This document shows, piece after piece, positions 29,297-49,262 of a stretch of 64,000 nucleotides of DNA (positions are counted from its first letter, which is position 1; each line of letters opens with the position of its first letter). A program made the translations under genes and the position numbers. The DNA is from an uncultured Planctomycetaceae bacterium. GTDB taxonomy: Bacteria > Planctomycetota > Planctomycetia > Planctomycetales > Planctomycetaceae. Below the pieces are notes generated by a model, which was not told the DNA's origin, did no database searches, and worked only from the letters and a program-made list of their open reading frames with translations. The stretch spans positions 434,001 to 498,000 of the forward strand of contig CAXBME010000001.1 in the NCBI GenBank assembly GCA_963976765.1, read 5' to 3'.

Positions 29297-30013
29297 TTAT
29301 TGAGTCTGAACTTCACGACAAAGCGGGCAAGCTGTTGGCATTGCTTCACCGGATTTCAGACCTGTGGCCCCGCGGAGGATGGTCACGCTGCCCATCACGA
29401 TGACGCAGAACGCGGCGGCCTTGACGAGTCGCTTGCGGCCTTCGAGTCCGATCAGTGAACCACCAAGTCCTGCCCCCACCATTAGTGGTACAGTTCCCAG
29501 GCCGAAGGCAAGCATGATTAACGCTCCGGTATGCATGTGACCGGAACTGAGGGCGAGTGCCAGGAAAGCGTACACAAGCCCGCACGGTAAGAACCCGGTC
29601 GCGAGGCCTGCGAGAAACACGTGACCAGGACGACCGGATTTCAACAGGCTGCGAAAGTGCGTGGCCGCTGCGCACGAGGAAGCCTGTTTGAGCCACTTTT
29701 CAGAGGATGGAATCAACCCGCCAGAAACAAGTCCCGTTGCGACGAGAGCAACGCCCGCCATGACGGACAACACGCCCTGCACATTCGCGACCGTTACCAG
29801 ATCGTGCTGAAGCTGTTGTCCTCCAAAGCCGGCCGTCGCACCAAGAAACGCATAAGTAAAGCATCGCCCCAACGAGTAGACCGATTGCCGGGTGAGATTC
29901 TGTCGAGGCGTGCTGGTGTCCCAGCCAATCGCCACCGCGAAAGCGCCGCACATTCCGATGCAGTGTCCGCTGCCGAGGAGCCCGCCGAGGAATATCAGAG
30001 GCCAGTCGATCAT
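29297..30013 (-). CDS. DsbD_2/TauE-like cbb3 biogenesis membrane protein
   Basis: GLLGSGHCIGMCG, Y.LGR..TY, GFLPCGLVY, FGLGTVP; ATG 30013 overlaps the ATPase stop. Confidence 0.9.
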   Translation of the reverse strand: MIDWPLIFLGGLLGSGHCIGMCGAFAVAIGWDTSTPRQNLTRQSVYSLGRCFTYAFLGATAGFGGQQLQHDLVTVANVQGVLSVMAGVALVATGLVSGGLIPSSEKWLKQASSCAAATHFRSLLKSGRPGHVFLAGLATGFLPCGLVYAFLALALSSGHMHTGALIMLAFGLGTVPLMVGAGLGGSLIGLEGRKRLVKAAAFCVIVMGSVTILRGATGLKSGEAMPTACPLCREVQTQ

Positions 30014-32355: not shown

Positions 32356-32528
32356 GGAGGGGACACCATCTCCGTTTGAATGGCGGGCAGAAGGTACGTC
32401 ACGGTGTAGTAAATGACGAACGCCCAGAACAGCAGCCATAACATGCGAACGTACCACGGGATGGCGTTGCTCGTGTAGTTATGAAACTTCTGTTCGGCTT
32501 TGGCTGATGATTGATCGGTCTCATGCAT
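32352..32528 (-). CDS. 58-aa single-TM protein missed by the ORF track (resembles the CcoP N-terminus)
   Basis: Hand-translated MHETDQSSAKAEQKFHNYTSNAIPWYVRMLWLLFWAFVIYYTVTYLLPAIQTEMVSPP*; fills the operon gap, with an ATGA overlap to the ATPase. Confidence 0.8.
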   Translation of the reverse strand: MHETDQSSAKAEQKFHNYTSNAIPWYVRMLWLLFWAFVIYYTVTYLLPAIQTEMVSPP

Positions 32529-32536
32529 GAACTGTC

Positions 32537-32854
32537 TCAGTTGTCCGAGGGAGTTGCTTGGGTGCTGGCTTCGTCGAGCTTTGCTTCCTGCTCAAGCATG
32601 TGGTATTTCGGTTCTTCGATGTCGCGAAACATGCCGTTGAGCGTCGCCCACAACAGCAGGCAGAAGAATCCAAGACTTGCCAGCAGGTAATTGGCAACGG
32701 GCGAAATGGCGAATATTCCATCCACGTCGCCACGGACCAGCGCGATGAATTCTGTCAGCTTCATGCCAAACCCCCACAGGCTCGGCACAAGAATCAGAAC
32801 AGCCAGAATCGCCGTGACGATGATGGTGGCTTTGCTTTCGCGATGTGATGACAT
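32537..32854 (-). CDS. Two-TM small protein with a CcoS/FixS-like C-terminus
   Basis: LLWATLNGMFRDIEEPKYHML resembles the CcoS W...G.F.D.E.P motif; located in the cco operon. Confidence 0.75.
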   Translation of the reverse strand: MSSHRESKATIIVTAILAVLILVPSLWGFGMKLTEFIALVRGDVDGIFAISPVANYLLASLGFFCLLLWATLNGMFRDIEEPKYHMLEQEAKLDEASTQATPSDN

Positions 32855-32856
32855 AT

Positions 32857-33558
32857 TTACTCGTCCTCAGATTCTGAGTTTTCCTCAGGTTGCTCAAACG
32901 GGGCCGGCTGATAGTTTTCGTAGTCCGGATAGCTTTCCAGCCACGAACCGAGCCACTGCACGTAGGTAATCAGAGCAAGGCCTCTTCGGTTCGGCTTGTC
33001 AGGTGTACCATCGAAGAGCCACGGGTACTCCGGCATCGGCGACTTCGTGGATGTCATCTCGGGTTTGAAGAGATGAACCGCGTGCCAGTCGTTAGAACGC
33101 CGACCGCCTTCACGACTCAGATCCGGCCCGATACGACGCGTGCCGAAAAGCACTGGTCGCTGGAGTTCGTTCTGATATTCCCATGACGCAGACACTGGCC
33201 CCCAGCGTTTATCTTCATTTGAAACGGGGCGCACGAACTGGCTGTGACAATGCCAGCAGCCTTCTCCGACGTAAATGTCGCGGCCTTCACGAAGCGAATC
33301 AGCGACGTTCTGGTTCCACCAGTCGGCTCCGGTTTCGGGATCGACCGGTGGCTCGCCGTACGCCTTCACGAAGGATTCGGGATAGCGTCGAGAAAGATCC
33401 TCGAACTGGAACCGCACATTTCCGTTAACAAGTTCTTCAGCCGTCTGCTCGGGAATGTTCCGGTACATCAGGTACGGGACGGCCGCGTTCGATAGAAAGG
33501 CGAATCCGAAGAATGCCAGCCCGGCGACTAACAGGATGCCGGATTTACTTTCAAACAT
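32857..33558 (-). CDS. ccoO: cbb3-type cytochrome c oxidase subunit II
   Basis: GRDIYVGEGCWHCHSQFVRP, GTRRIGPDLSREGG.RSNDWH, SPMPEYPWL. Confidence 0.93.
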   Translation of the reverse strand: MFESKSGILLVAGLAFFGFAFLSNAAVPYLMYRNIPEQTAEELVNGNVRFQFEDLSRRYPESFVKAYGEPPVDPETGADWWNQNVADSLREGRDIYVGEGCWHCHSQFVRPVSNEDKRWGPVSASWEYQNELQRPVLFGTRRIGPDLSREGGRRSNDWHAVHLFKPEMTSTKSPMPEYPWLFDGTPDKPNRRGLALITYVQWLGSWLESYPDYENYQPAPFEQPEENSESEDE

Positions 33559-33644
33559 TTTGACTCGATCCTTGCTTCAGGCTGGATGTGACTTTGACCA
33601 GCCGATTCAGAAACTCGGGGCTATAGAATTACTTTCTGACCGAA

Positions 33645-35060
33645 TCAGGCTGGGGCCGCGGCGACATTCATCGCTGGTTCCGGCTCGCTTCGCCAGGTCA
33701 TGTAAAAGTTGTAGAGAAACACCATCAAGCCGCCGAACATGGACAGTCCAGCCCAGATGCGGATCATCCAGAACGGGAAGGAAACATCGACCGAGCGATC
33801 CCAGGGCTGGAGACTCGACCAGCTCCAGCCCTGAAACAGACCGCCGAGGATCAGGTCCGCAGCCATAACGGCCAGACCGGCGGCCGACAGCCAGTAGTGA
33901 TATTCACACAGCTTGTTGCTGTACCAGTCTCGTTTCAGGATCAGCGGGATCAGATAAGTCATCATGCCGAAGATCCACATGCTGAAGACGCCGAACATCA
34001 CCAGATGGGCGTGTCCGACAACCCAGTCGGTGAAATGAATCAGTGCCTGGAACGTCAGCGTGGTCTGCATTGCACACTGCAGACACGTCAGGAAGTAAAA
34101 GACCATGCCCGTGTAGAAGTAGCGGATCGGGAGATTCGTCAGAACCTCGCGGCCACGTCCCCAGATCGTCCCGAAGAAGTTGATCACCACCGTCGTGACG
34201 ACCAGTTCGACGGCGATCGTCGAGATGATCGCTCCGTACTGCAGGAACATCGGAATCGGTGTGTAGAGAAAGTGGTGGATTCCATTGAGCGGGTAAAAGA
34301 ACGCCAGCCCCCAGAAGCCAACCAGCGACAGCCCGTGACTCCAGATTGGCTTCTTCAGCAGAATCGGGACGAAGTAATACATCAGCCCCCAGCCGAGGGG
34401 CGTCACAAACAGCCCAACCAGGTCGTGAATGAACAACCCGCCGACGGCACCAGCAGCGGTTCCCGAGACAAAGTATTCGGGGACAAAATTGCCCATCGCA
34501 TAGGTGAGGAACGTCCAGACGAAAGCCGCCAGAAAATACCACAGCGTGACGTACATCGGGCCTTTGACCTGAACGATCGGCGTCATGAAATTGATCGCGA
34601 CCAGCAGCAACCCGAGCTGCGCCAACGGGTCAATCCACGTCGGCGTCTCACCCCATTCCAGTCCCTGAGCCTGGCCCAGCAGAATTCCGACAGCTGTCGC
34701 GAGCACAACAATCTGCCACGCCGTGAAGATCAGCCACGACAGACGCCGATCAAGTACCGGCCTTAACGTCAGGCGAGGAATCACCCAGTGCAGCAACCCC
34801 AGAAATCCGTTGGCCAGAAATCCATAGGCGATGGCATTTGTATGAAGCATTCGCCAGCGGCCGGGCGAGAAAATCTCAACCCCACTCAGCGGGTTATGAC
34901 GCAGTAGTTGAGCTGCCATCAGGAACCCACCGAGCATCGAAATCGAGATGAACGTCAGCGCCGCGATGAAATACGCCAGCACAATCTTCTCGTCGACCAG
35001 CGAGGCATGCGTTGTCGGTGTGGATAGAGAATTGTCAGGTTGCAGAGCTTCGTCAGTCAT
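33645..35060 (-). CDS. ccoN: cbb3-type (C-family) haem-copper oxidase subunit I, divergent
   Basis: GRWRMLHTNA, HDLVGL, FFYPLNGIHHFLY, HFTDWVVGHAH; about 12 TM helices. Confidence 0.92.
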   Translation of the reverse strand: MTDEALQPDNSLSTPTTHASLVDEKIVLAYFIAALTFISISMLGGFLMAAQLLRHNPLSGVEIFSPGRWRMLHTNAIAYGFLANGFLGLLHWVIPRLTLRPVLDRRLSWLIFTAWQIVVLATAVGILLGQAQGLEWGETPTWIDPLAQLGLLLVAINFMTPIVQVKGPMYVTLWYFLAAFVWTFLTYAMGNFVPEYFVSGTAAGAVGGLFIHDLVGLFVTPLGWGLMYYFVPILLKKPIWSHGLSLVGFWGLAFFYPLNGIHHFLYTPIPMFLQYGAIISTIAVELVVTTVVINFFGTIWGRGREVLTNLPIRYFYTGMVFYFLTCLQCAMQTTLTFQALIHFTDWVVGHAHLVMFGVFSMWIFGMMTYLIPLILKRDWYSNKLCEYHYWLSAAGLAVMAADLILGGLFQGWSWSSLQPWDRSVDVSFPFWMIRIWAGLSMFGGLMVFLYNFYMTWRSEPEPAMNVAAAPA

Positions 35061-35177
35061 GATGAAAGTTGTCTGAGTTGGGGACGATTAAAATTTCAGG
35101 AACGTTGCAGAGTTGTTTCGAAAGCAGTCTGCCAAACAGTCCATGGTGAAACTGTTTGTGCCAGGGTTCCGAAATAG

Positions 35178-35852
35178 TCATTCTTCGGAAGCAGGTTTCG
35201 ATGGCGTTCGGTAGGGAACGAACTGACCGAATGGAAAAACAAAGACCATCGTCACTCCGAAGACAACATGCGTGGCCGCAGCAACCCACCAGGGAAGGTA
35301 TTCGCCGCTGGTAATCCAGTTGCCACCGCAGACGATCGGTTGCAACCAGACCAGCACTCCGTAGAACAGAAACAACCATGCAAAGATTCCCAGAGTCGCA
35401 GCAAACAGCACTCGCTGCATGGTCGTGGCTCTGGGCGTAAATCGAGCCAGCAGCACGTGAAACGGAACACCAAGAAACATTCCCGTGCCGAGATAAAGAC
35501 AGACCCCACACGCCAGGATGACTCCGTTATCAAGGGCATAAACCTGAGTCGCTGAATTGGTCAGTGCGAGAGCCCGCTCACCAAGGGGGAACGTCAGGTA
35601 AACCCGAATCAGTTCCAGAGGCTCCTTGCCGGCAATCGGAGCGCCGATCACGTTAAAGACGAGACTGACGGACGCCGCGATGAGCCCCAGCAGGAACCCG
35701 TTCGTTGCGTAGTACATGGTGTAAAAGCCAGTCAGCCGCCACGGAATCGCTGCGGATTCTTCGAGAATCTCCGCTTCGAGTTCATTAGCCTTCTGACGCA
35801 TCGCCAGCAGTTCAAGCTGCTTTGATTCAAGTTCGGGATCAGTCAACGACAT
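35178..35852 (-). CDS. Hypothetical multi-TM protein in the cco operon
   Basis: 224 aa, about 4 TM helices, GAGG RBS. Confidence 0.85.
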   Translation of the reverse strand: MSLTDPELESKQLELLAMRQKANELEAEILEESAAIPWRLTGFYTMYYATNGFLLGLIAASVSLVFNVIGAPIAGKEPLELIRVYLTFPLGERALALTNSATQVYALDNGVILACGVCLYLGTGMFLGVPFHVLLARFTPRATTMQRVLFAATLGIFAWLFLFYGVLVWLQPIVCGGNWITSGEYLPWWVAAATHVVFGVTMVFVFPFGQFVPYRTPSKPASEE

Positions 35853-35918
35853 ACCGTTGCCTCAGAATGGTGTCCGTCTTTAATTGCCCAGTAACCGACG
35901 ATTTGACGAATGAAGTGT

Positions 35919-36983
35919 CTATTCGGCAGACGCAGTTGCCGCTTCCGGCTTGTCGCTTTCAGGTGTTGTCATGCTGAACATTCCCGGTGTTGGAATCTCT
36001 CCATCACGCCGCTGACCCGAAACGTGCAACACATACGCCACCAGGTTCCAGATCGTTTCCGGTTCTTTTTCGAGCGAACTCTTGAATCCTGGCATTGGCG
36101 TGCCATTGATGCCGGACACGATTCGCCGATAGATATCGAGTGGCTCGCTACCACCGTGCAGCAACCCGGATGTCAGATCCGCAGCCTTTGTCGTGAACCC
36201 CCACCCATCCTTGCCGATATTGTCTTTAGTCATGCCTCGGCCATCGTCGCCATGACATTTCGAACAACCCTTGGAGAGAAATGCCTCGCGCCCCGCAGCT
36301 ACATGATCTGCCGTGAGAAAAGGAGGCCGATTCGTCAGCGGATGAACTTCCGCCTTCTCGGCGGCGTCCCATCGTGACAGTACTTCTTCCACAATGCCGG
36401 GCACGTTTTCCGGATCGATCTCTTCTTCAAACTCCGCTTCGAGTGCGAGCCGCGTTTCCAGTTCGCCTCGATGACTCAGTAGCAGCACGTAGTCGACAAG
36501 AGCTTCCAGCTCACGGTCCGGGTGCAGATTGAACGACGGCATCGAAGTGCCGGGGATTCCGCGGCGAAGTGTTCGCATCAAATCTTCCCGCCGAGGCCGG
36601 TTGCCGTATGGCGTCGACGTGAACTTGAAGATGCCCTTGCGATAGTCTCGAGGCCGCGGGTAAAGAAACTTCGCTGCGACTCCTTTGCCGTCACCGGAGA
36701 TTCCGTGGCACTGCTGGCAGTATCGGTTGTAAAGATCTCGACCAAACTTCACGTTGTGTTTTGGCGTTTCCGGATCTGCGAGTGGTTTGGGGACGGTCGG
36801 GGTACCGGACCGTTCGAGCACGATCACGGTGACCGCCTGTCGCAGCTCTTCATCGAGAGCGGCGACAGCCTCGCCAGTTACAAACTGTGTCTCAACTGCC
36901 GGTCGGCAACCACTGGCCAGTACCAGGCAAAGCCCGAAAAAAACAGGCAGACGGGCTCGAAAGACAGATTTCAAACGCGGCAC
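35919..36983 (-). CDS. Dihaem c-type cytochrome lipoprotein
   Basis: Lipobox LASGC; CQQCH...GTSMPSF and CSKCH...GTPMPGF; PRPRDY. Confidence 0.92.
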   Translation of the reverse strand: MPRLKSVFRARLPVFFGLCLVLASGCRPAVETQFVTGEAVAALDEELRQAVTVIVLERSGTPTVPKPLADPETPKHNVKFGRDLYNRYCQQCHGISGDGKGVAAKFLYPRPRDYRKGIFKFTSTPYGNRPRREDLMRTLRRGIPGTSMPSFNLHPDRELEALVDYVLLLSHRGELETRLALEAEFEEEIDPENVPGIVEEVLSRWDAAEKAEVHPLTNRPPFLTADHVAAGREAFLSKGCSKCHGDDGRGMTKDNIGKDGWGFTTKAADLTSGLLHGGSEPLDIYRRIVSGINGTPMPGFKSSLEKEPETIWNLVAYVLHVSGQRRDGEIPTPGMFSMTTPESDKPEAATASAE

Positions 36984-40614: not shown

Positions 40615-41217
40615 ATGACAGGCACCCTGCGAATCGTCGTCGCGGGTGATGAGCCCGACATGCTCGGTTTTTACCAGACCATGCTGAGCGGTCTGGGACA
40701 CGATGTTGTTGCCATGGCCCGAAATGGCCAGCAACTGGTTGACCTGACGCTTCGGCACAGTCGCGATCTGATTATCACCGACATTCGGATGCCCGAACGC
40801 GACGGGCTGAACGCCGTTCGAGAAATCACACTGCAGAAGCCTGTTGCCGCGATCGTTGTCTCGGCGCACACGGACAACGAATACATTGAACAGGCGGCGC
40901 ACAATTGCATTCTGGCATATCTTGTTAAACCAATTCGTGCAGCCGACCTCGGCCCGGCAATCATCCTCGCTCGGCAACGGTTTCGAGAATTTCAGGCCTT
41001 GCAGCAACAGGCCGACAACCTCCGGCAGACACTTGAAGATCGGGAGATCATTGAGCGAGCCAAAGGCATTCTCATGGACCGCAGCAGGGTTTCTGAGAAA
41101 GACGCGTTCCTGCGACTGAGGAAGTTGTCGAACGATCGCAATGAGAAACTGGTCGACATCGCTCGAACGATTGTCACTGCCGAAGCCGCTTTCGTGAGAG
41201 AGTCAGTCGTCAGTTGA
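40615..41217 (+). CDS. REC-ANTAR response regulator (NasT/PdtaR/EutV-like)
   Basis: LIITDIRMP..DG, YLVKP, LEDREIIERAKGILM...SEKDAF..LRK.S. Confidence 0.93.
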   Translation: MTGTLRIVVAGDEPDMLGFYQTMLSGLGHDVVAMARNGQQLVDLTLRHSRDLIITDIRMPERDGLNAVREITLQKPVAAIVVSAHTDNEYIEQAAHNCILAYLVKPIRAADLGPAIILARQRFREFQALQQQADNLRQTLEDREIIERAKGILMDRSRVSEKDAFLRLRKLSNDRNEKLVDIARTIVTAEAAFVRESVVS

Positions 41218-41506
41218 CACGCGTTCGGTTTTGTCCGGTTTGGCCTGACGGGTTTTCTCAACGAGGTCGCGACGATCCGTGACTCGGATCGTTGCCACAC
41301 CCGCGCAGGTCTGAGATTCAGTTCGAAGTTCGCCTTCGTATCAGTGGGTGTATAAACGATCGAGCGAACACTTCCGCCGTGAGAAATGAGAAGCACGGCC
41401 AGTCACCGCGCGACAATTCACTCATAGCGCGCATTTTCGCACACTTTAGAGTGCCGGCAGTGCGATTTCGGCAGTGTCCGCTGGCCAGAATCGCGGGACG
41501 AAGGTT

Positions 41507-41521
41507 TGGCACGCGATCTGC
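41507..41521 (+). promoter_or_regulatory. Sigma-54 promoter candidate for the globin (and possibly nap) transcript
   Basis: TGGCACGCGATCTGC (GG-N10-GC), about 126 nt upstream of the globin start. Confidence 0.65.
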
Positions 41522-41647
41522 CAATGATCGGTGGAAACTCATCTGGATGACTGAAAACATTCGATGCTGGTATCTGAGTCGAGGTTGACTTCTGCTGGCC
41601 GGACGAATTGTCAGACAAGCCATTTGTGAAGATCGAAAGCAACACCA

Positions 41648-42106
41648 ATGCCTCGGGCTGAAAAGATCTCGTCAGCGCCACAAACCTCACAGGACCGGCT
41701 ATCTGCACTCATTGAAGACGTCGTTCGTCCGAGCTTCGTTCGTTGCTGTGCGGACTCTTCCGAGTTCTTCGACTCCTTTTACTTCAGGCTCGGGGTGCGA
41801 TTGCCTCAGGTCGGAACGATGTTTGCCCGGGTTGATATGCAGAAGCAGAATGATCTCATGAAAGACGGCATTAAAAAATTGATTGAATATGCCAATGGGA
41901 ACTCGAAGGCTGAGGCTGAGCTGAAACGAGTTGCAGAAAGTCATTCGCGGTCCCGCCTGGGCGTTCTTCCAGAGTACTACCCCCACTGGATCGACTCTCT
42001 GATGGAGACGATTCGGGAGCACGATCCCGCGACGACTGACGAAGCCGAAACGGCGTGGAGGCAGGTTCTGGCTGGTGGAATTGCTCTGATGATTGCCGGT
42101 TTCTGA
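41648..42106 (+). CDS. Single-domain globin
   Basis: F...FY (B10 Tyr), MF (CD1 Phe), Q (E7), VAESH (F8 His), GV.PEYY..W..SL, AW. Confidence 0.88.
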   Translation: MPRAEKISSAPQTSQDRLSALIEDVVRPSFVRCCADSSEFFDSFYFRLGVRLPQVGTMFARVDMQKQNDLMKDGIKKLIEYANGNSKAEAELKRVAESHSRSRLGVLPEYYPHWIDSLMETIREHDPATTDEAETAWRQVLAGGIALMIAGF

Positions 42107-42206: not shown

Positions 42207-42944
42207 TTGGCGAACGTGCGATTTTTCAGGCATCAACCCGACGATACATCCGCCGAAAGGCAGAAGTCCGCTTTGCCACGCTGGTCGTTGGGGGCTGCTC
42301 TGTGCAGCCTCGCGATTGCTGGCGTCGGGGCCGCAATGACTGCGGAATATTCTGACGACAACGAATCCGGGATCGACGTTCCCGGCAAATCGGTTCAAGC
42401 TGACTCTCAACCAGGTAGTGACGATTCCGGTTCAGACACCGGCACTTCCACATCCAACTTTGCCATCGAAATCCGCAAGCCTCCCGGCCCACCACGAGTT
42501 GGCACCGGGCTGAAGAATGTCGATGGAACTGAAGTGACGGTTGCCTGCTCAACATGCCATACAACTCGAGTTCCGAATCACCACAACAAAACCGTCAAAG
42601 AACTCGACGAATTTCACGGCGGCATGGCGTTCTCACACGGCACGGTCAGTTGCCTGTCGTGTCATAACGAACGCGACTACGACACGCTGCGATTGGCAGA
42701 TGGAAGTCGAGTTGAGTTTCCCGACGTCATGAAGCTCTGTGCTCAATGTCACGGCCCTCAGATGAAGGCTTACGAGCATGGAGCGCACGGCGGAATGAAC
42801 GGGTATTGGGACTTAACTCGAGGACCACAGACGAAGAACAACTGCATTGATTGCCACGACCCCCATGCTCCGCAGTTTCCAAAGATGCGACCGACGTTTA
42901 AGCCGAAGGATCGATTTCTCGAACAGCCGAGGACCAGGCATTGA
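42207..42944 (+). CDS. Tetrahaem c-type cytochrome with N-terminal anchor/signal
   Basis: CSTCH, CLSCH, CAQCH, CIDCH; TTG start with AGGGA upstream. Confidence 0.9.
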   Translation: MANVRFFRHQPDDTSAERQKSALPRWSLGAALCSLAIAGVGAAMTAEYSDDNESGIDVPGKSVQADSQPGSDDSGSDTGTSTSNFAIEIRKPPGPPRVGTGLKNVDGTEVTVACSTCHTTRVPNHHNKTVKELDEFHGGMAFSHGTVSCLSCHNERDYDTLRLADGSRVEFPDVMKLCAQCHGPQMKAYEHGAHGGMNGYWDLTRGPQTKNNCIDCHDPHAPQFPKMRPTFKPKDRFLEQPRTRH

Positions 42945-43915
42945 TTGCAGATGACAACTCCTCGCCAGAGAGACAGGCCGAGACAAATGAGGGATGGCAC
43001 CTGCCAGTTGTAGATCAGCCGTCGACTCGACGAACCGCGATGAAGACTGCCGGAGCAGCACTTGGTCTGGCGGCGTTCGGCAAAGCGATTTCGCCGTTGT
43101 GGAGCATTCCTGAGAACGTTTCGGTCGATGAGTTTCTGCAGCAGCACTACAAGGAACTTTCAGACAAGGACAAGCAGAAAGTCTTTCAGAGACTGGAAGC
43201 TGAATCCAGGGAAACCTACGGCGCGGAAGTCACGATTTCCGATCCGAAGCCTGTTCCTGGAGTGCGGTTTGGTTACGCCATCAACCTCAGCAAGTGCAAT
43301 GGCAACGGTGCCTGCATGGAAGCCTGCAACAAGGAAAACAACCACCACCGAGGAATCGACCAGTCGTATATCCGTGTGCTGGAAATGTCCAAGGGGTCGA
43401 TGGACATGGAACACGGCACAACAACCTACGACCACACCGTTCCACAGGACGACAAGTTCTACATGCCGGTGCAGTGTCAGCAGTGTGAAAACCCGCCGTG
43501 CGTGTCGGCGTGCCCGATCGAAGCGACATGGCAGGAAGACGATGGCATTGTCGTGGTCGACTACAACTGGTGTATCGGGTGTCGCTATTGCGAGGCAGCC
43601 TGCCCGTATCATGCGAGGCGATTTAACTGGGAACAGCCCGAGATTCCGGCGGGCGAGATCAACCCTGATCAGGGTTACCTGTCGAACCGCATTCGCCCTC
43701 AAGGCGTGATGGAAAAGTGTCACTTCTGTCTGCATCGAACGCGTGAAGGTCGAGCCCCTGCCTGTCTGGAAGCCTGCTCGACCGGGGCGCGAGTCTTTGG
43801 TGATTTGAACGATCCCGATTCGGATATCAACTGGGTTCTCAAGAACAAACGCGTTTTCGTGCTGAAAGAAGAACTCGGTACCCAACCCAATTTCTTTTAC
43901 TTTTTCGATTCGTAA
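42941..43915 (+). CDS. NrfC/DmsB-type polyferredoxin with twin-arginine signal
   Basis: STRRTAMK; CNGNGACMEAC, CQQCENPPCVSAC, CIGCRYCEAACP, CHFC..PACLEAC. Confidence 0.93.
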   Translation: MIADDNSSPERQAETNEGWHLPVVDQPSTRRTAMKTAGAALGLAAFGKAISPLWSIPENVSVDEFLQQHYKELSDKDKQKVFQRLEAESRETYGAEVTISDPKPVPGVRFGYAINLSKCNGNGACMEACNKENNHHRGIDQSYIRVLEMSKGSMDMEHGTTTYDHTVPQDDKFYMPVQCQQCENPPCVSACPIEATWQEDDGIVVVDYNWCIGCRYCEAACPYHARRFNWEQPEIPAGEINPDQGYLSNRIRPQGVMEKCHFCLHRTREGRAPACLEACSTGARVFGDLNDPDSDINWVLKNKRVFVLKEELGTQPNFFYFFDS

Positions 43916-43918
43916 ATC

Positions 43919-45196
43919 ATGTCGTCGATCACCGCTCAGAATCATACAAGCACTGACTCTGCCGACTCAGTGCGCAGCTACCCGCGATTTCTCTGGTGGG
44001 GATTGGGGGAAGCCACAAATGGTGGGCTGCGATTCTACGTCTGGATGTTCGTGCTGACCGCGATCTCACTTGTCGGCGCAAATGCGTGGGCGAATCAGGT
44101 GGCGGAAGGAATGATCATTACCAACATGACCGACCACGTCAGTTGGGGCCTTTACATTGCAAACTTCACTTTCTGCGTCGGCCTTGCTGCTGGCGGCGTG
44201 ATGATGGTCATTCCTGCCTATCTCTACGACGACGAAGAAATGCACAGGATTGTGATCGTTGGCGAAGCTGTCGCCGTCGCTGCAATTGTAATGTCGACGT
44301 TGAGTGTTGTTGTCGATCTTGGTCGACCGGATCGTTTCTGGCATCTGATCCCGGTAATTGGTCGCTTGAACTGGCCCGTCTCCATGTTGACATGGGACGT
44401 GATCGTGCTGAACGGCTACCTGCTGATCAATCTGCATATCGTCGGCTATCTGCTTTACATGAGGTACCTTGGTCGCAAGCCAAACCCGAAGTGGTATGTC
44501 CCGTTTGTTTTCCTTTCGATCATCTGGGCCATCAGCATCCACACCGTTACAGCATTTCTCTATTGCGGACTCGGAGGCCGCCCCTTCTGGAATACTGCTT
44601 TACTTGCGCCGAGGTTTCTGGCGTCCGCATTTGTCAGTGGCCCGGCATTTATCATCCTTGTAATGAGGATTCTTCGAATCACTGCCGGGTACTCGGCCCC
44701 TCCCGGACCGGCCCGCACGCTGATTCAAATCATTCGTGTCGCGATGACCATTAACCTCGTAATGCTTGCCAGTGAAATCTTTACACTGTTTTACACCGGT
44801 GGATCGCACGGCGCATCGGCCAGATATCTGTTCTTCGGAAGTCACGGTCACTACGGACTTGTCCCGTGGATCTGGACGGCGATCGTCTTCAATCTGGTCG
44901 GCACGATCCTGTTCTTTATGCCCGCAGCTCTTGATCGCAGTACTGTCCGAATCGCTGCTTGTGTGTTGTGCATCGTTGGCATCTGGATTGAGAAGGGCAT
45001 GGGGCTGATCGTTCCGGGGTTCATCCCGTCAACGCTTCACGAGATTGTTGAGTACACACCAAGCCTTGTGGAATGGAAAGTCACCGCCGGAATCTGGGCA
45101 TTCGGATTTCTGTTGCTGACCGTACTGCTGAAGCTCATCGCGACAGTCTTTTCCGGTGAACAGAATGCGGGCAAGGCCATCGCTTCTTCCGGCTGA
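43919..45196 (+). CDS. NrfD/PsrC-family (DsrP/QrcD-like, about 10 TM) quinol-interacting membrane subunit
   Basis: VSWGLYIANFTFCVGLAAG, DLGRPDRFWH, SMLTWD, SIHTVTAFL, RPFWNTALLAPRFLASAF, YTPSLVE. Confidence 0.93.
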   Translation: MSSITAQNHTSTDSADSVRSYPRFLWWGLGEATNGGLRFYVWMFVLTAISLVGANAWANQVAEGMIITNMTDHVSWGLYIANFTFCVGLAAGGVMMVIPAYLYDDEEMHRIVIVGEAVAVAAIVMSTLSVVVDLGRPDRFWHLIPVIGRLNWPVSMLTWDVIVLNGYLLINLHIVGYLLYMRYLGRKPNPKWYVPFVFLSIIWAISIHTVTAFLYCGLGGRPFWNTALLAPRFLASAFVSGPAFIILVMRILRITAGYSAPPGPARTLIQIIRVAMTINLVMLASEIFTLFYTGGSHGASARYLFFGSHGHYGLVPWIWTAIVFNLVGTILFFMPAALDRSTVRIAACVLCIVGIWIEKGMGLIVPGFIPSTLHEIVEYTPSLVEWKVTAGIWAFGFLLLTVLLKLIATVFSGEQNAGKAIASSG

Positions 45197-45258
45197 AAGT
45201 CCGTGCCTTGCCTGCCACGACGTCCCGTTCAACTCAATCGATTCATTGAGACCAGAAA

Positions 45259-45543
45259 ATGATTGCCAGCGTAGTTGCCACACTCGACGGTTTCGACGGT
45301 GATGTTCAGCACATCGTCGACGAATTCTGCAAGGAGTCGGGTATCGAAATCGGAGTTGTCGGCAAGGGAGTCCGCCGTGTTCCGATCACCATCGATTCGC
45401 CCGTTCCAGATGCCCTTGAGGAAACAACGAAACGGCTGCAGGAGTGCCGCGGCGTGGCATTTGTCGATGTCGTGTTCGTCCACTTCGAAGACGAGTCAGA
45501 GAGTCCTGCGACGACACATTCAGGAAAGATCAACCACTCATGA
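45259..45543 (+). CDS. napD: NapD-like chaperone
   Basis: 94 aa, MIASVV...GVAFVDVVFVHFEDE, translationally coupled to napA. Confidence 0.75.
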   Translation: MIASVVATLDGFDGDVQHIVDEFCKESGIEIGVVGKGVRRVPITIDSPVPDALEETTKRLQECRGVAFVDVVFVHFEDESESPATTHSGKINHS

Positions 45544-47963
45544 ACGGTGAATTGCAACCAGCAACCGAGGCCATTCGGCGTCGGCAGTTTATCAAGGCTG
45601 CGGCCATGGCAGCGGCTTCTTCCGTTGTCGGCGGGTCGGATTACACGCTTCCGGTTCTCGCGGATGAATCCTCGCAAGGAGTTCAGTGGGCGAAGGCTCC
45701 GTGTCGGTTTTGCGGAACCGGATGCCATGTGCAGGTGGGTGTCCAGGGCGGTAAGGTCGTCGCCGTTGCGGGCGACAGAAACGCGGAAGTGAATAAGGGG
45801 CTGCTCTGCGTTAAGGGGTACCACGTTGGCTCGGCACTCTACGGCAAGGACCGTCTCACTCGACCACTGCTTCGTGACGGGGATCGCTATCGTGAGATCT
45901 CCTGGGAAGAGGCAATCCGAACAATTGCTGATCGAATCGAGGTGGCTCCGGAACGGTTCGCGTTCTACGGTTCCGGCCAATGGACCATTCCAGAGGGGTA
46001 CGCGGCTCAGAAGTTCATGAAGGGTGGCTTGTCGAACAACCACATTGACCCCAACGCCCGGTTGTGCATGGCTTCAGCCGTGACAGGTTTTCTGGCGACG
46101 TACGGCGTGGATGAACCAGCGGGCTGCTACGACGACCTCGATGAATGCGACGTACTCATCATGTGGGGCAACAACCCGGCGGAGATGCATCCGGTGCTGT
46201 TTTCCCGAGTGGTTGACCGCCGCAGTCGCGGAGAAAAAGTCACGCTCATCGACATTGGAACGCGACGTACCCGGACAACAGAAGCCTGTCAGCACTATCT
46301 CGAAATGAAGGGGCACGGTGATCTGGCAATCGCCAATGGTATCGCTCACCTGCTGATAAAGAACGGGACGTACGACCGCCGGTTTGTGGAATCATTCTGC
46401 AACTTCAAAGCGTCAGACGACGAGAATCCCAACCTGCACGGTAAACCGATCTCGTTTGATGACTACAGGAAGTTTCTTGAACCCTACACACCAGAACACG
46501 TCGAGGAACTGTCTGGCGTTCCTGCTGAGCAGATCCGGATGCTGGGCGATCTGTTTGGCAACCCTGATCTGAAGATCACTTCGTTGTGGTGCATGGGGAT
46601 GAATCAGCACACGCGAGGCACTGCTGTTAATGCGCTCGTCCACGGAATTCATCTCCTTAGCGGACACTTCGGCACGCCAGGCAACGCACCAACGAGTCTT
46701 ACTGGGCAACCGTCCGCCTGCGGAACGGTGCGGGAAGTTGGCACTCTGGCTCACGCCCTTCCTGGCGGTCGCGTTGTCGCCAACGAGGACCATAGGAAGC
46801 AGTCTGAGGAATTCTGGAATATCCCTGCCGGTCGCATCAATGCGACTCCCGGCTACCACACCGTTAAAATGTGGGAAAGCTTCTGCACACCAACAGATCA
46901 GGGAGGCGACATCGGCACCATCTGGGTGCAGGTGACAAATCCGGGGCAGACACTGCCAAATCTCAACAAGCTGTTTAATCCCAAAGGTGACAACAAAGCC
47001 GGACTTGAGGACAAGTTCCTCATCGTCAGCGACGTCTATCCGACAGCAACGACTCGGCTGGCTGACTTGATCCTGCCGTCAGCAATGTGGGTGGAAAAGA
47101 ACGGAGTGTTCGGCAATTCAGAACGTCGCACTCAACAGTGGTTCAAGATGGTCGATCCTCCGGGAGATGCTCGCGACGATTGCTGGCAGACGATCGCGGT
47201 CGCTCACGAGTTGTTCAGTCGGGGCATGGCTGGCATGAAAGATCGGGACGATCGATTTCTGTTCGAAATAAAAGACAAAAACGACATGCCCGTGCCCGTC
47301 TGGGAATGGGAGCGTTATTACGACGTGAATGTCGACGAGTATTTGTTCGAGGAATACCGGCAGTTCACTCGGCTCAAGCACAAAGACCTCGCTCCGTACA
47401 GCGAGTATGTCAACGCACGTGGCCTTCGCTGGCCGGTCGTCGAAACGGACGGACATTGGCGGGAAACGCATTTACGATTCTCGGAGCACTTCGATCCGTA
47501 CGTTGAAGCCGGCAGAGAAGTTCAGTTTTACCATTCTTCGACGCAGGATGACCGCGCACAGATCTGGTTCCATCCGTGGATTGCCCCCGCCGAAGTTCCT
47601 GATGATGACTACCCGTTCATGCTCTGCACCGGACGAGTCCTGGAACACTGGCATTCCGGTTCGATGACCCGTCGCATTCCGGAGTTGAACCGGGCCATGC
47701 CCGGCGGCTATCTGGAGATTCATGCCAAAGATGCGGCGGCACTCGACATTCGCAACGGTGACCAGGTCGAGGTTGAATCCCGTCGCGGCTCGCTGGTAGT
47801 TCCAGTGTGGATTGATGGTCGCGGTCAGCCACCTCGGGGAACGGTCTTCATCCCGTTCTTTGACGAAACGTTGCTGGTCAACGATCTCACGCTGGATGCT
47901 CTCGATCCGTTTTCAAAGCAGCCAGACTATAAAAAGTCGGCTGTGCGGATCAGAAAGGTCTGA
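45540..47963 (+). CDS. napA: Periplasmic nitrate reductase catalytic subunit
   Basis: Tat IRRRQFIK; APCRFCGTGC...LCVKG; GSGQW; DPNARLCMASAV; MGMNQH; LTGQPSACGT.REVG; TGRVLEHWHSGSMT; SKQPDYKK. Confidence 0.95.
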   Translation: MNGELQPATEAIRRRQFIKAAAMAAASSVVGGSDYTLPVLADESSQGVQWAKAPCRFCGTGCHVQVGVQGGKVVAVAGDRNAEVNKGLLCVKGYHVGSALYGKDRLTRPLLRDGDRYREISWEEAIRTIADRIEVAPERFAFYGSGQWTIPEGYAAQKFMKGGLSNNHIDPNARLCMASAVTGFLATYGVDEPAGCYDDLDECDVLIMWGNNPAEMHPVLFSRVVDRRSRGEKVTLIDIGTRRTRTTEACQHYLEMKGHGDLAIANGIAHLLIKNGTYDRRFVESFCNFKASDDENPNLHGKPISFDDYRKFLEPYTPEHVEELSGVPAEQIRMLGDLFGNPDLKITSLWCMGMNQHTRGTAVNALVHGIHLLSGHFGTPGNAPTSLTGQPSACGTVREVGTLAHALPGGRVVANEDHRKQSEEFWNIPAGRINATPGYHTVKMWESFCTPTDQGGDIGTIWVQVTNPGQTLPNLNKLFNPKGDNKAGLEDKFLIVSDVYPTATTRLADLILPSAMWVEKNGVFGNSERRTQQWFKMVDPPGDARDDCWQTIAVAHELFSRGMAGMKDRDDRFLFEIKDKNDMPVPVWEWERYYDVNVDEYLFEEYRQFTRLKHKDLAPYSEYVNARGLRWPVVETDGHWRETHLRFSEHFDPYVEAGREVQFYHSSTQDDRAQIWFHPWIAPAEVPDDDYPFMLCTGRVLEHWHSGSMTRRIPELNRAMPGGYLEIHAKDAAALDIRNGDQVEVESRRGSLVVPVWIDGRGQPPRGTVFIPFFDETLLVNDLTLDALDPFSKQPDYKKSAVRIRKV

Positions 47964-47965
47964 CG

Positions 47966-48754
47966 ATGAACCGGGAAAAAAACACAAAGCAAACGACTCT
48001 CTTTGCGTTCGTTGTGCTTTCAATCGCCATCGCTGGATATTTTACGGGACTGCAGGCACCGATGGTTGCTTCAACGACAAGCCGATCGAGCCCGGTGGAG
48101 CATCTTAAAACGGAGTCGTCATCCAGACTGGAAGTCGGCGTGATTCCTGCGACGCCTTACGCTGACATTGCTGAGGCGACAACGAAACACCGTCACCATA
48201 CTCGATTGGCCAGTCTCAAGTCAGAGTTTGACCCGTTTGAGGAAATCAGGATTGCACCGGGAGAGAAGTCAGCAGCACTCGATCAGCGCAGCAGGAATCG
48301 AGCGTTCAATGGATCCCCACCGACAATACCGCACCCGATTGAGCAACGGTCGGACAAGTCGTGTGTCGCGTGCCATAGCCAGGGCGTCAGAACGGAGTCG
48401 CTAAGAATTCCGCGAATGTCGCATCAGTTTCTGGCCAACTGCACGCAGTGTCATATTGAGAGTAACCCGCGACACATGGTCGCCGTTGAATTTCGCGAAA
48501 ATGGCTTTGCCGGACTGGCTGCTCCCACTGGAGGTCCGCGAGCGTTCGAAGGTGCGCCGCCGCAGATTCCTCACACAACCTGGATGCGAGTCGACTGTCT
48601 GAGCTGCCACGGTGATGGAGGGCAACGAGGAATTCGCACCACGCATCCGTGGAGAATGAACTGCCAGCAGTGTCACACCCCATCGGCTTTGTTCGATCAA
48701 ACCTTGCTGGCTGTTGAACCTCAGTTTCTTCCTGGCCCGCAAATTAAACAGTAA
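47966..48754 (+). CDS. napB: NapB-like cytochrome, tandem-duplicated with four haem motifs
   Basis: RAFNGSPPTIPH..CVACH..CTQCH and RAFEGAPPQIPH..CLSCH..CQQCH. Confidence 0.85.
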   Translation: MNREKNTKQTTLFAFVVLSIAIAGYFTGLQAPMVASTTSRSSPVEHLKTESSSRLEVGVIPATPYADIAEATTKHRHHTRLASLKSEFDPFEEIRIAPGEKSAALDQRSRNRAFNGSPPTIPHPIEQRSDKSCVACHSQGVRTESLRIPRMSHQFLANCTQCHIESNPRHMVAVEFRENGFAGLAAPTGGPRAFEGAPPQIPHTTWMRVDCLSCHGDGGQRGIRTTHPWRMNCQQCHTPSALFDQTLLAVEPQFLPGPQIKQ

Positions 48755-48761
48755 GGCAATC

Positions 48762-49262
48762 ATGGCAGACGGCAACAGGATGTCACGACGGGATTGGTTT
48801 CGCCTGCGCCCTCGTCAAAAAGAACAAAACGTCGAAGCGTCGCGCAACATGCCGAACAGCGTCGGCGGTGCTGCAATGGGTGAAGCACCCGACGTTCTTC
48901 AGGCGGTCGCCCATCCCGTTAACCACGACGGGATGGACCTTTCTGAATTGCCGCCGATGCGCGAAGCGCTACTGACGGAAGAGCAGGTTCGACAGTTGTT
49001 TTCCGACATTGAATCGCTCGCCTCGGAAATTCTGCTGATGCAACGCTCGGCTCGCTCTCAACAAGCCACAGCATCCAGAGCGACAACCGCTGAGCAACTC
49101 CGCACGGCGCAGGAGTCTCTCCTGTCCGGCAACGTTCCTCGTGTGCAGATCCGCTATCACTGGCAGGATTCAAACTGGATCGACACGCTGGAAGCTCGCG
49201 ACCGGGGCATAAGGCTGGTACGCATCGCCCACAACCTGCCGGCGTCAGCACGCAACAGCTGA
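48762..49262 (+). CDS. Hypothetical protein at the end of the nap operon
   Basis: ATG 7 nt after the napB stop, with AAGG upstream; 166 aa; SRRDWF near the N-terminus. Confidence 0.8.
   Translation: MADGNRMSRRDWFRLRPRQKEQNVEASRNMPNSVGGAAMGEAPDVLQAVAHPVNHDGMDLSELPPMREALLTEEQVRQLFSDIESLASEILLMQRSARSQQATASRATTAEQLRTAQESLLSGNVPRVQIRYHWQDSNWIDTLEARDRGIRLVRIAHNLPASARNS

What the first reader, a model, noticed from the sequence alone, without database searches (positions are those of the whole stretch)
42207..49262. Nap nitrate reductase wired to a cytochrome/NrfC/NrfD quinol module instead of NapC or NapGH
Seen: a tightly packed operon (overlaps at 42941-44 and 45540-43; gaps of 2-7 nt, one of 62 nt) encoding tetrahaem cytochrome c, Tat polyferredoxin, NrfD-like protein (about 10 TM), NapD, NapA, tetrahaem NapB and an unknown protein. 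There is no napC, napG, napH or napF in the window. Known: characterised Nap systems draw electrons through NapC/CymA or NapGH and Nap itself is regarded as non-electrogenic, whereas cytochrome + FeS + NrfD-like trios form the core of Qrc, DsrJOP and alternative complex III. Inference: this is a distinct Nap architecture in which quinol oxidation could be proton-coupled.
Basis: partly seen in the sequence, partly recalled or inferred. Interest (0 to 1): 0.82.

Follow-up and report, generated by a model that had tools for sequence, protein, structure and literature searches.

The report
Nap reductase with DsrOP-like quinol module
A periplasmic nitrate reductase in this planctomycete lacks both textbook membrane electron donors and sits beside a three-gene cytochrome/iron-sulfur/membrane module that very probably feeds it electrons from quinol, a widespread but untested wiring with no sign so far that it pumps protons.

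Summary
The seven genes are real and as described. The molybdoenzyme is a true NapA and the NapB is a tandem four-haem form. The membrane protein is DsrP-like, not QrcD or ActC. The 100%-complete genome has no NapC and no NapH or NapG above cut-off, though an unlinked NapH-NapG-like fusion exists.

In 150 family genomes, all 14 with this NapA clade carry the trio; the 5 with another NapA use a Rieske/cytochrome b pair instead. In 55 GTDB loci of the same NrfD clade, 51 have napA alongside. The halves are usually divergent, so the single operon here is the minority order. In a sister clade the trio sits beside the octahaem cytochrome that Rieske/cytochrome b serves elsewhere (13 of 25 loci), so it looks like a swappable quinol-oxidising input.

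Best reading: electroneutral menaquinol-to-nitrate transfer. Pumping is unsupported: two of three essential QrcD channel residues appear missing, and there is no ActF partner. The trio is in print as a module of unknown function. The Nap link gets one passing mention, and this scan has found it repeatedly on other DNA.

The parts
42207..42944 (+). Membrane-anchored tetrahaem cytochrome c, 245 aa, TTG start; predicted bis-His haems; output subunit of the quinol module
   Evidence: 4 CxxCH and a hydrophobic stretch at 28-46. Four invariant distal His in 64 of 64 aligned rows. Homologues align from residue 1-2. Fused to a DsrP-like protein in P0133 (hhalign probability 99.9). Model pLDDT 88, only weak fold matches (MtrA Z 2.8, NrfH Z 2.5).
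42941..43915 (+). Tat-exported NrfC/DsrO-type iron-sulfur protein, 324 aa; three canonical 4Fe-4S motifs plus one with Cys-to-Asn122
   Evidence: NCBIfam DsrO 198.6 bits, cut-off 200; best PDB match PsrB 2vpw_B E 4.6e-36. Tyr216 lies between Cys ligands of the third motif in every row where that motif was found; I infer it is the counterpart of QrcC Y113.
43919..45196 (+). DsrP-like NrfD-family membrane subunit, 425 aa, 10 predicted helices; putative P-side menaquinol site Y79/D133/S155/D160
   Evidence: NCBIfam DsrP 418.3 bits, cut-off 350; the only PF03916 match in the genome. It keeps 18 of 20 residues listed for D. vulgaris DsrP, mapped through proxy P0151. The four site residues are invariant in 69 of 69 main-clade rows.
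45259..45543 (+). Probable NapD chaperone, 94 aa
   Evidence: PF03927 E 0.0033, below cut-off; overlaps the napA start by 4 nt; homologues at the same position in relatives.
45540..47963 (+). NapA, periplasmic nitrate reductase catalytic subunit, 807 aa
   Evidence: Twin-arginine motif; E. coli NapA 2nya_A E 2.1e-211. C55/C58/C62/C90, K92, the Mo-ligand C176, M177 and most of LTGQPSACG are invariant in 64 of 64 clade rows. It falls in a 75-row NapA group (SH-like 100) that excludes NasA and Fdh.
47966..48754 (+). Membrane-anchored tandem (double) NapB, four haems, 262 aa
   Evidence: PF03892 E 1.5e-9; weak match to C. necator NapB 3ml1_B E 0.0067. Two PP..PH...CxxCH...H...CxxCH repeats with four invariant distal His in 50 of 50 rows. 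Hydrophobic stretch at 11-29.
48762..49262 (+). Conserved Nap-associated protein of unknown function, 166 aa, alpha/beta domain of about 100 aa, no Cys
   Evidence: Present in 36 of 55 main-clade GTDB loci and 0 of 25 sister-clade loci, after napB wherever it could be placed. No Pfam family in the window copy. Model pLDDT 78; best fold Z 6.6, not distinctive.

Best explanation
The trio is a menaquinol:cytochrome c oxidoreductase that replaces NapC/NapGH. The DsrP-like subunit oxidises menaquinol at a site near the periplasmic face. Electrons then pass through the Fe-S chain to the anchored tetrahaem cytochrome, on to the anchored double NapB, and to NapA, which reduces nitrate to nitrite in the periplasm. 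The quinol protons go to the periplasm, where nitrate reduction uses them, so this segment is electroneutral. It serves micro-oxic respiration or redox balancing, and any energy is conserved by upstream dehydrogenases.

Shown: gene identities, catalytic and quinone-site residues, absence of NapC, conserved linkage, co-occurrence and substitution by Rieske/cytochrome b.

Inferred: direction of flow, order of carriers, physical contacts, side of proton release, physiological role.
For: 1. NapA is intact and groups with NapA. MoaA and the menaquinone enzyme MqnC score above cut-off in the genome.
2. No NapC/NirT match in a genome 100% complete; NapH and NapG only below cut-off.
3. In 150 family genomes: 14 have both, 0 have this NapA clade without the trio, 1 has a NrfD fragment at a contig end without napA, and 5 have another NapA without the trio. 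All 5 of those have Rieske + cytochrome b + octahaem upstream of napA.
4. napA is in 51 of 55 GTDB main-clade loci from Planctomycetota, Verrucomicrobiota, Myxococcota and Sumerlaeota; all 4 misses have a short upstream flank. Flammeovirga kamogawensis p1 has all six core genes on one strand.
5. The sister-clade trio lies beside the same octahaem family in 13 of 25 loci, and beside some cytochrome of 5 or more haems in 22 of 25.
6. A natural NrfD-cytochrome fusion exists, P0133.
7. NapH is above cut-off in 1 of 64 trio-plus-napA genomes.
8. The Qrc/HybB cytoplasmic-channel residues D70/D58 and Y110/Y99 map to N82-T84 and I123.
Against: All of it is genomic; no assay or expression data were seen, and related genomes are not independent.

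The halves are divergent in most relatives, so they need not be made in fixed ratio. Other possible donors exist in this genome: two cytochrome b genes and the NapH-NapG-like fusion. PF03264 scores above cut-off in 31 of 64 trio-plus-napA genomes. Of the 30 hits inspected, 20 are tetrahaem genes beside a five-haem NrfA-like gene, so probably NrfH, but NrfH-type proteins could also feed Nap.

The polar residues E116, Y167, H208, R221, R232, E286, E358 and K359 are invariant or nearly so. That leaves a proton path open, and the electroneutral part of this reading is its weakest step.
Confidence: 0.68

Rival explanations
1. Same electron path, but the DsrP-like subunit also pumps protons, making this Nap branch energy-conserving.
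For: The drop from menaquinol (-70 mV, PMC6303296) to nitrate/nitrite (about +0.42 V, recalled) is ample. The protein keeps 18 of 20 DsrP residues proposed as quinone site and half-channels, including the mid-membrane Lys. The ten-helix architecture matches ActC, its best PDB match (6f0k_C). Proton translocation has been suggested for DsrOP-type modules (PMC13047784).
Against: Electrogenicity has been measured only for Qrc, which does not pump. Mutating the proposed gating Arg of QrcD (K359 here) left about half the activity (PMC13059093). There is no second NrfD subunit like ActF (one PF03916 match). ActC His139 is Asp133 here. The channel lists come from homology models.
Confidence: 0.14
2. 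The trio is a general quinol:cytochrome c oxidoreductase, co-regulated with nap but serving several periplasmic acceptors (the neighbouring cbb3 oxidase, an anchor-less Tat molybdoenzyme on contig C23). Nap is fed partly or wholly by the bc-type complexes or the NapH-NapG-like fusion.
For: Divergent transcription in most relatives. The trio occurs without nap in the sister clade (napA in 4 of 25 loci) and in cable bacteria. This genome has two cytochrome b genes, the fusion, a cbb3 cluster about 5 kb upstream and an orphan Tat Mo-enzyme plus Tat ferredoxin (L006).
Against: The fusion occurs in only 3 of the 14 family genomes with this Nap, and in 16 genomes that have no napA match. The cbb3/globin neighbourhood is not conserved: among 96 loci, globin 0, ccoN 0, ccoP-like 1. 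Main-clade trios are not seen without napA where the flank is long enough.
Confidence: 0.14
3. The module keeps a Qrc-like cytoplasm-facing proton channel, so quinol oxidation releases protons inside and spends proton-motive force (a dissipative valve), or it runs towards quinone reduction.
For: It belongs to the ten-helix NrfD group that includes QrcD and HybB, which work this way in reverse (PMC6303296). Counterparts of QrcD S138 and Y150 and of QrcC Y113 are kept. Nap is described as serving energy dissipation (PMC13223375).
Against: The counterparts of QrcD D70 and Y110, both essential in Qrc, are non-acidic (N82-T84) and Ile123. This mapping used E. coli HybB and published numbering, not a QrcD sequence. 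The reaction is strongly downhill and needs no driving force.
Confidence: 0.04

Closest known systems
Canonical Nap systems (napEDABC, napDAGHB, napCMADGH, napAGHBFLD, as listed in PMC13223375; E. coli napFDAGHBC)
   Same: NapA with all checked catalytic residues, NapD upstream, and a NapB-type haem partner downstream.
   Different: No NapC or NapGH in the locus. NapB is a membrane-anchored tandem four-haem protein. This NapA forms its own 64-row clade (SH-like 100) apart from the E. coli/Rhodobacter/Cupriavidus clade and scores just under both NCBIfam NapA cut-offs. The review has no occurrence of 'nrfD'.
dsrOhPh-tetrahaem locus of cable bacteria, some Desulfobulbales and Gamma-/Betaproteobacteria (PMC13047784; passages and supplement passages read)
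   Same: The same three parts: a DsrO-like FeS protein, a DsrP-like NrfD in a clade apart from canonical DsrP, and a bis-His tetrahaem cytochrome. It is separate from dsrMK and speculated to pass electrons from quinone to the periplasm.
   Different: Described there as of unknown function and with no nap link (one napA mention, elsewhere; none in the supplement text held). The cable-bacterial TMH1 gene has no counterpart between the tightly packed genes here. I could not place named DsrPh sequences in my tree.
Geobacter sulfurreducens Cbc4 (CbcS-CbcT-CbcU; bioRxiv 10.1101/2025.04.14.648717, parts 1-3 of 5 and passages read)
   Same: An anchored bis-His tetrahaem cytochrome with a flexible linker and a haem domain of about 100 residues, a four-cluster FeS protein and an integral membrane subunit. 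It is proposed as a quinol oxidase feeding periplasmic cytochromes.
   Different: Its acceptor is PpcA and extracellular electron transfer, not Nap. The preprint text never calls CbcU NrfD (that label is recalled). Sequence homology was not tested because no CbcSTU sequence came up.
DsrJOP of DsrMKJOP
   Same: The DsrP model is passed and the DsrO model missed by 1.4 bits; 18 of 20 listed DsrP residues are kept.
   Different: Tetrahaem rather than trihaem DsrJ; no DsrM/NarI-family gene in the genome; presumed canonical DsrP proteins form a separate clade (SH-like 99).
QrcABCD and alternative complex III
   Same: Cytochrome c + FeS + ten-helix NrfD core, with a Ser/Asp-type P-side quinone site.
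   Different: No cofactor-less Mo-like QrcB/ActB domain and no ActDEF. The QrcD model scores 46 of 570. The molybdo-subunit here is a catalytically complete NapA.
Multihaem/4Fe-4S/NrfD cluster near nap in MAGs OFTM8 and OFTM33 (PMC10732223, section 10 read)
   Same: Those two MAGs carry this layout in my scan (L102, L085), so the paper very probably saw this system.
   Different: The paper gives it one sentence, as a reduced variant of an ACIII-like cluster with a general respiratory role. It does not propose it as the Nap electron donor. I did not see its figure or supplementary table.

Membership tests
NapA | Tat signal, four-Cys FS0 cluster, bridging Lys, Cys ligand to Mo followed by Met, LTGQPSACG segment | tested here: met
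   the residues match E. coli NapA and are invariant in 64 of 64 clade rows (Ser392 in 62 of 64).
NapA | Groups with NapA, not NasA or Fdh | tested here: met
   a 75-row group with SH-like 100 holds E. coli, Rhodobacter and Cupriavidus NapA. FastTree only; the two outgroup rows are long branches.
NapA | Passes the NCBIfam NapA equivalog cut-off | tested here: not met
   878.9 against 904, and 845 against 930.55; a divergent clade, so annotation pipelines may leave it unnamed.
Canonical Nap operon | NapC, or NapG plus NapH, as quinol dehydrogenase | tested here: not met
   PF03264 has 0 matches in the genome. TIGR02163 and TIGR00397 match only one unlinked fusion gene, below cut-off.
Canonical Nap operon | Soluble dihaem NapB | tested here: not met
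   Four CxxCH in two NapB-like repeats with an N-terminal hydrophobic stretch.
DsrMKJOP | DsrP-type membrane subunit and DsrO-type FeS subunit | tested here: met
   DsrP 418.3 against 350; DsrO 198.6 against 200, borderline.
DsrMKJOP | DsrM partner and trihaem DsrJ | tested here: not met
   PF02665 has 0 matches in the genome; the cytochrome has four haems and no DsrJ model was listed.
DsrMKJOP | DsrK, DsrC and DsrAB in the genome | not tested
   No search was run for these.
QrcABCD | QrcD-type subunit with D70 and Y110; QrcB subunit | tested here: not met
   QrcD model 46 against 570. HybB D58 and Y99 align to N82-T84 and I123 (by proxy). No QrcB-like gene in the locus.
Alternative complex III | ActB fusion, ActC with His at the quinol site, ActF second membrane subunit, ActD/E | tested here: not met
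   A stand-alone 324-aa FeS protein; Asp133 in place of His; a single PF03916 gene in the genome.
dsrOhPh-tetrahaem module | DsrO-like + DsrP-like + bis-His tetrahaem genes together, away from dsrMK, in a clade apart from canonical DsrP | tested here: met
   against the description.
dsrOhPh-tetrahaem module | Falls in the published DsrPh clade | tested here: inconclusive
   No named cable-bacterial or Table S3 sequence appeared among the best 120 hits of either search or in 20 cluster look-ups.
Geobacter Cbc4 | Sequence homology to CbcS, CbcT and CbcU | tested here: inconclusive
   The architecture agrees, but no named Geobacter sequence came up.
Electrogenic NrfD complexes | Measured charge separation or proton translocation | not testable with these tools
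   Needs proteoliposome assays.

The most novel reading that the evidence does not exclude
This is an energy-conserving periplasmic nitrate reductase: a DsrP-like subunit that pumps protons while oxidising menaquinol for NapA. Nap respiration would then be electrogenic in many Planctomycetota, Verrucomicrobiota, Myxococcota and Bacteroidota. It would also give a function, and a tractable assay with nitrate as acceptor, to the orphan DsrOP-tetrahaem module.
Probability: 0.14. Interest if true: 0.85.

Novelty: new variant of a known kind. Interest (0 to 1): 0.5.

Why it matters
It points to a third route from the quinone pool to Nap, absent from the four operon types in a 2026 review (PMC13223375). 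It also suggests a job for a DsrOP-tetrahaem module that a 2026 paper lists as of unknown function (PMC13047784).

DsrP-type proteins have no direct bioenergetic measurement in the papers I read. A version coupled to a soluble, high-potential acceptor, in cultured organisms, makes the question of whether ten-helix NrfD proteins pump protons directly testable.

In practice, the subunit is annotated as 'sulfate reduction DsrP' and this NapA falls below NCBIfam cut-offs. Genome surveys may therefore over-call sulfur metabolism and under-call nitrate reduction in these phyla.

Tried and rejected
Complex prediction of the tetrahaem cytochrome with double NapB gave no verdict (score 0.00); not used either way.

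RNA run search: no RNA holder was listed, so no reads were laid.

Unknown protein: no Pfam family in the window copy, and six single-member matches at E 0.02-0.09 among 34 rows. The Atlas gave only an unnamed cluster. Fold searches were not distinctive (best Z 6.6; no Foldseek E below 0.001). The fold search of the cytochrome gave only Z 2.8 and 2.5.

Regulation: sigma-70 and terminator scans were at chance level. A sigma-54-like match lies at 41507 upstream of the globin gene. Only 1 of 11 divergent intergenic regions of relatives had one and none had a strict FNR box, so no shared regulator is claimed.

The IQ-TREE run on NapA did not finish; both trees are FastTree only. Attempts to find named Geobacter CbcU or cable-bacterial DsrPh sequences failed.

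Rejected readings: DsrMKJOP (no DsrM, tetrahaem), Qrc (model score, residues), ACIII (no ActB/ActF), and a catalytically dead NapA-like protein (C176 present). The NapH-NapG-like fusion was rejected as the family-wide donor (3 of 14 genomes), but not excluded in this genome.

Literature: 8 full-text searches showed no title or abstract proposing an NrfD-type donor for Nap. I opened 9 papers (passages or sections only). Subscription journals are not held, including a recalled 2021 review of the NrfD family by Duarte and colleagues. The spreadsheets of PMC13047784 (Tables S1, S2) and the supplement of PMC10732223 were not seen and may bear on novelty.

Full report
1. Observation. The seven genes lie on the + strand exactly as described, with gaps of -4, 3, 62, -4, 2 and 7 nt. 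The cytochrome has four CxxCH motifs and an N-terminal hydrophobic stretch. The FeS protein has a twin-arginine motif and 15 cysteines. The NrfD protein has ten hydropathy peaks. NapD is a weak call (PF03927 E 0.0033, below cut-off), backed by its position. The host is a Planctomycetaceae-type genome by the names of its closest homologues; it is 8.57 Mb and 100% complete.

2. The molybdoenzyme is NapA. Its best solved relatives are E. coli and C. necator NapA (E 2e-211 and 1.5e-209). The FS0 cysteines, bridging Lys92, Mo-ligand Cys176 and Met177 are invariant in 64 of 64 clade rows. In a FastTree tree of 78 rows it lies in a 75-row NapA group (SH-like 100) that excludes the genome's NasA and Fdh. 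Within that group it belongs to a 64-row clade (100) separate from the proteobacterial NapAs. It scores just below both NCBIfam cut-offs. NapB is a tandem of two NapB-like dihaem repeats with four invariant distal histidines in 50 of 50 rows.

3. The trio is DsrOP-like. The membrane subunit passes the DsrP model (418 against 350) and fails QrcD (46 against 570) and NrfD; the FeS protein sits at the DsrO threshold. There is no DsrM/NarI-family gene and only one PF03916 gene, so neither DsrMKJOP nor alternative complex III is encoded. In a 134-row tree the nap-linked NrfDs form a 70-row clade (99), apart from a 9-row clade of presumed canonical DsrP (99) and far from HybB, ActC and NrfD; those outgroups are long branches. 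The cytochrome has four invariant distal histidines in 64 of 64 rows. It is fused to a DsrP-like protein in P0133 (probability 99.9), which ties it to the module.

4. Canonical donors. NapC/NirT has no match in the genome. NapH and NapG match only an unlinked 739-aa fusion on contig C9, below both cut-offs. That fusion is in 20 of 150 family genomes but in only 3 of the 14 that share this Nap. PF03264 is above cut-off in 31 of the 64. Of the 30 hits inspected, 20 are tetrahaem genes beside a five-haem NrfA-like gene and read as NrfH; the rest are other multihaem proteins. Many of these genomes are MAGs of unstated completeness. Among the 14 near-complete family genomes, 10 have no match.

5. 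Linkage. In 150 family genomes the NrfD occurs in 15 and napA in 19. Fourteen have both. One has a NrfD fragment at a contig end and no napA at the threshold. Five have a different NapA clade and no such NrfD. All five of those carry Rieske + cytochrome b + HAO-family octahaem directly upstream of napA. A GTDB scan found at least 572 relatives and kept the best 80. Of the 55 in the main clade, 51 have napA in the locus: 40 divergent, 9 trio-then-nap as here, 2 nap-then-trio. The four misses have short upstream flanks. They span Planctomycetota, Verrucomicrobiota, Myxococcota and Sumerlaeota. Flammeovirga kamogawensis p1 has napD, napA, a c3-family cytochrome, a hypothetical gene, the FeS gene and the DsrP-like gene on one strand. 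All 14 family loci that hold both halves are divergent, so the window's order is probably a derived rearrangement (inference). Kin are not independent, so these counts are descriptive.

6. Modularity. In the 25 sister-clade loci, napA is present in 4. The same octahaem family that Rieske/cytochrome b accompanies lies beside the trio in 13 of 25, and some cytochrome with five or more haems in 22 of 25, against 2 of 55 in the main clade. The trio and the Rieske/cytochrome b pair thus alternate in front of the same two kinds of acceptor. That is the strongest indirect argument that the trio is a quinol-oxidising input.

7. Mechanism. Menaquinone is the likely quinone (MqnC above cut-off) and MoaA is present. 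Proxy P0151 matches 19 of 20 residues listed for D. vulgaris DsrP at the same numbering, and the twentieth one position off (PMC8076601, passages). Through it, the window protein keeps 18 of 20, including the quinone-site set Y79/D133/S155/D160, invariant in 69 of 69 rows. The FeS subunit keeps Tyr216 between cysteines of its third motif, which I take as the counterpart of the essential QrcC Y113 (PMC13059093, abstract and passages). The inferred path is menaquinol, FeS chain, tetrahaem, double NapB, NapA. In a planctomycete subclade that includes the window, the first FeS motif has Asn for its second Cys; what that site binds is open. In this genome nitrite has no NrfA, no NirK or NosZ above cut-off and no NorB among the two PF00115 matches. 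Two NirB-type genes exist. NirS and complex I were not searched.

8. Proton coupling. The only NrfD complex with measured electrogenicity is Qrc. It takes up cytoplasmic protons to reduce menaquinone and does not pump; in reverse it needs proton-motive force (PMC6303296, passages and part 4 of section 3). For a quinol oxidase, a Qrc-type channel would therefore cost energy, and release to the periplasm gives zero net charge. Only true pumping would conserve energy. Of three essential QrcD channel residues, Y150 is kept (Y167). D70 and Y110 map, by E. coli HybB D58 and Y99, to N82-T84 and I123; this is by proxy, with a one-residue ambiguity at the first site. The proposed gating Arg proved non-essential in QrcD, and there is no ActF. 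Against this, a set of buried polar residues is invariant, so pumping is not excluded. I give 0.68 to electroneutral donor, 0.14 to pumping, 0.14 to general-purpose module and 0.04 to a dissipative or reverse mode.

9. What is known. A 2026 review lists four nap operon types and has no occurrence of 'nrfD' (PMC13223375, passages). The trio's architecture matches the dsrOhPh-tetrahaem locus, described as of unknown function (PMC13047784), and Geobacter Cbc4 (bioRxiv 2025.04.14.648717). Sequence-level identity with either could not be shown. One paper notes a multihaem/4Fe-4S/NrfD cluster near nap in MAGs OFTM8 and OFTM33 (PMC10732223); both MAGs carry this layout in my scan (L102, L085). My eight searches found no paper proposing it as the Nap donor, within a library that lacks most subscription journals. 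Earlier notes of this scan report the same system on other genomes at least six times; they are leads, not evidence.

10. Verdict. The locus is real and conserved: a new variant of the Nap system, built from known modules. The donor role is well supported by genomics and untested at the bench. The proton-coupling claim is speculative. Interest 0.5; 0.85 if pumping were shown (probability 0.14).

Noticed in passing
L071-L075 (G061, G040, G081, G045, G042): All 5 family genomes with the other NapA clade carry Rieske + cytochrome b + HAO-family octahaem + napA + tetrahaem NapB-like gene, a second non-canonical Nap layout. The scan has noted it before.
   Followed up: partly
L131, L139, L140, L141, L144, L146, L148, L149, L152-L156: The sister-clade trio lies beside an HAO-family octahaem cytochrome in 13 of 25 loci. 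Others lie beside large multihaem clusters (L133, L137, L138, L142, L145, L147, L150) that may be extracellular electron transfer conduits.
   Followed up: partly
P0133; P0123; P0122: Natural fusions of the DsrP-like subunit: with the tetrahaem cytochrome (P0133), with a C-terminal domain whose cluster has a member named CBS-domain protein (P0123), and with a long unassigned C-terminal domain (P0122, 859 aa).
   Followed up: partly
window 43295-43327: The first Fe-S motif of the DsrO-like protein has Asn for its second Cys, shared by a planctomycete subclade; most other members are canonical.
   Followed up: partly
L080, L081, L083, L085, L091, L094, L097, L102, L116, L119, L124, L151 and shorter matches in about 16 more: Many relatives have a NapG/NapF-like ferredoxin, full or short, after napB; six were scanned and all fell below cut-offs. 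The window has none, and its unknown protein begins with a twin-arginine-like stretch lacking a hydrophobic core.
   Followed up: partly
window 29297-36983 (-) and 40615-42106 (+): A cbb3-type oxidase cluster (ccoN, ccoO, dihaem cytochrome, Cu P-type ATPase), an ANTAR response regulator and a single-domain globin lie upstream. There is a sigma-54-like match at 41507. This neighbourhood is not conserved around relatives' nap loci.
   Followed up: partly
L006:6679-11155 (G000:C23): A possible chaperone gene, a Tat-type ferredoxin (TtrB-like) and a 971-aa PhsA-like molybdoenzyme with no membrane anchor gene beside them; the window's NrfD is the genome's only NrfD.
   Followed up: no
L009:5227-7446 (G000:C9): A 739-aa NapH-NapG-like fusion, in 20 of 150 family genomes and mostly without napA.
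   Followed up: partly
L005:6907-15657 and L010:8522-10000: An assimilatory cluster (narK, nirB, FeS protein, nasA-like), and a second nirB-like gene near a ten-haem ORF and a second globin.
   Followed up: no
L030, L031 (G116): One family genome holds two full copies of the nap-plus-trio locus on different contigs.
   Followed up: no
L121, L135: Records titled Klebsiella and Enterobacterales carry this locus but group with Myxococcota sequences in both trees, so their titles may be wrong.
   Followed up: no
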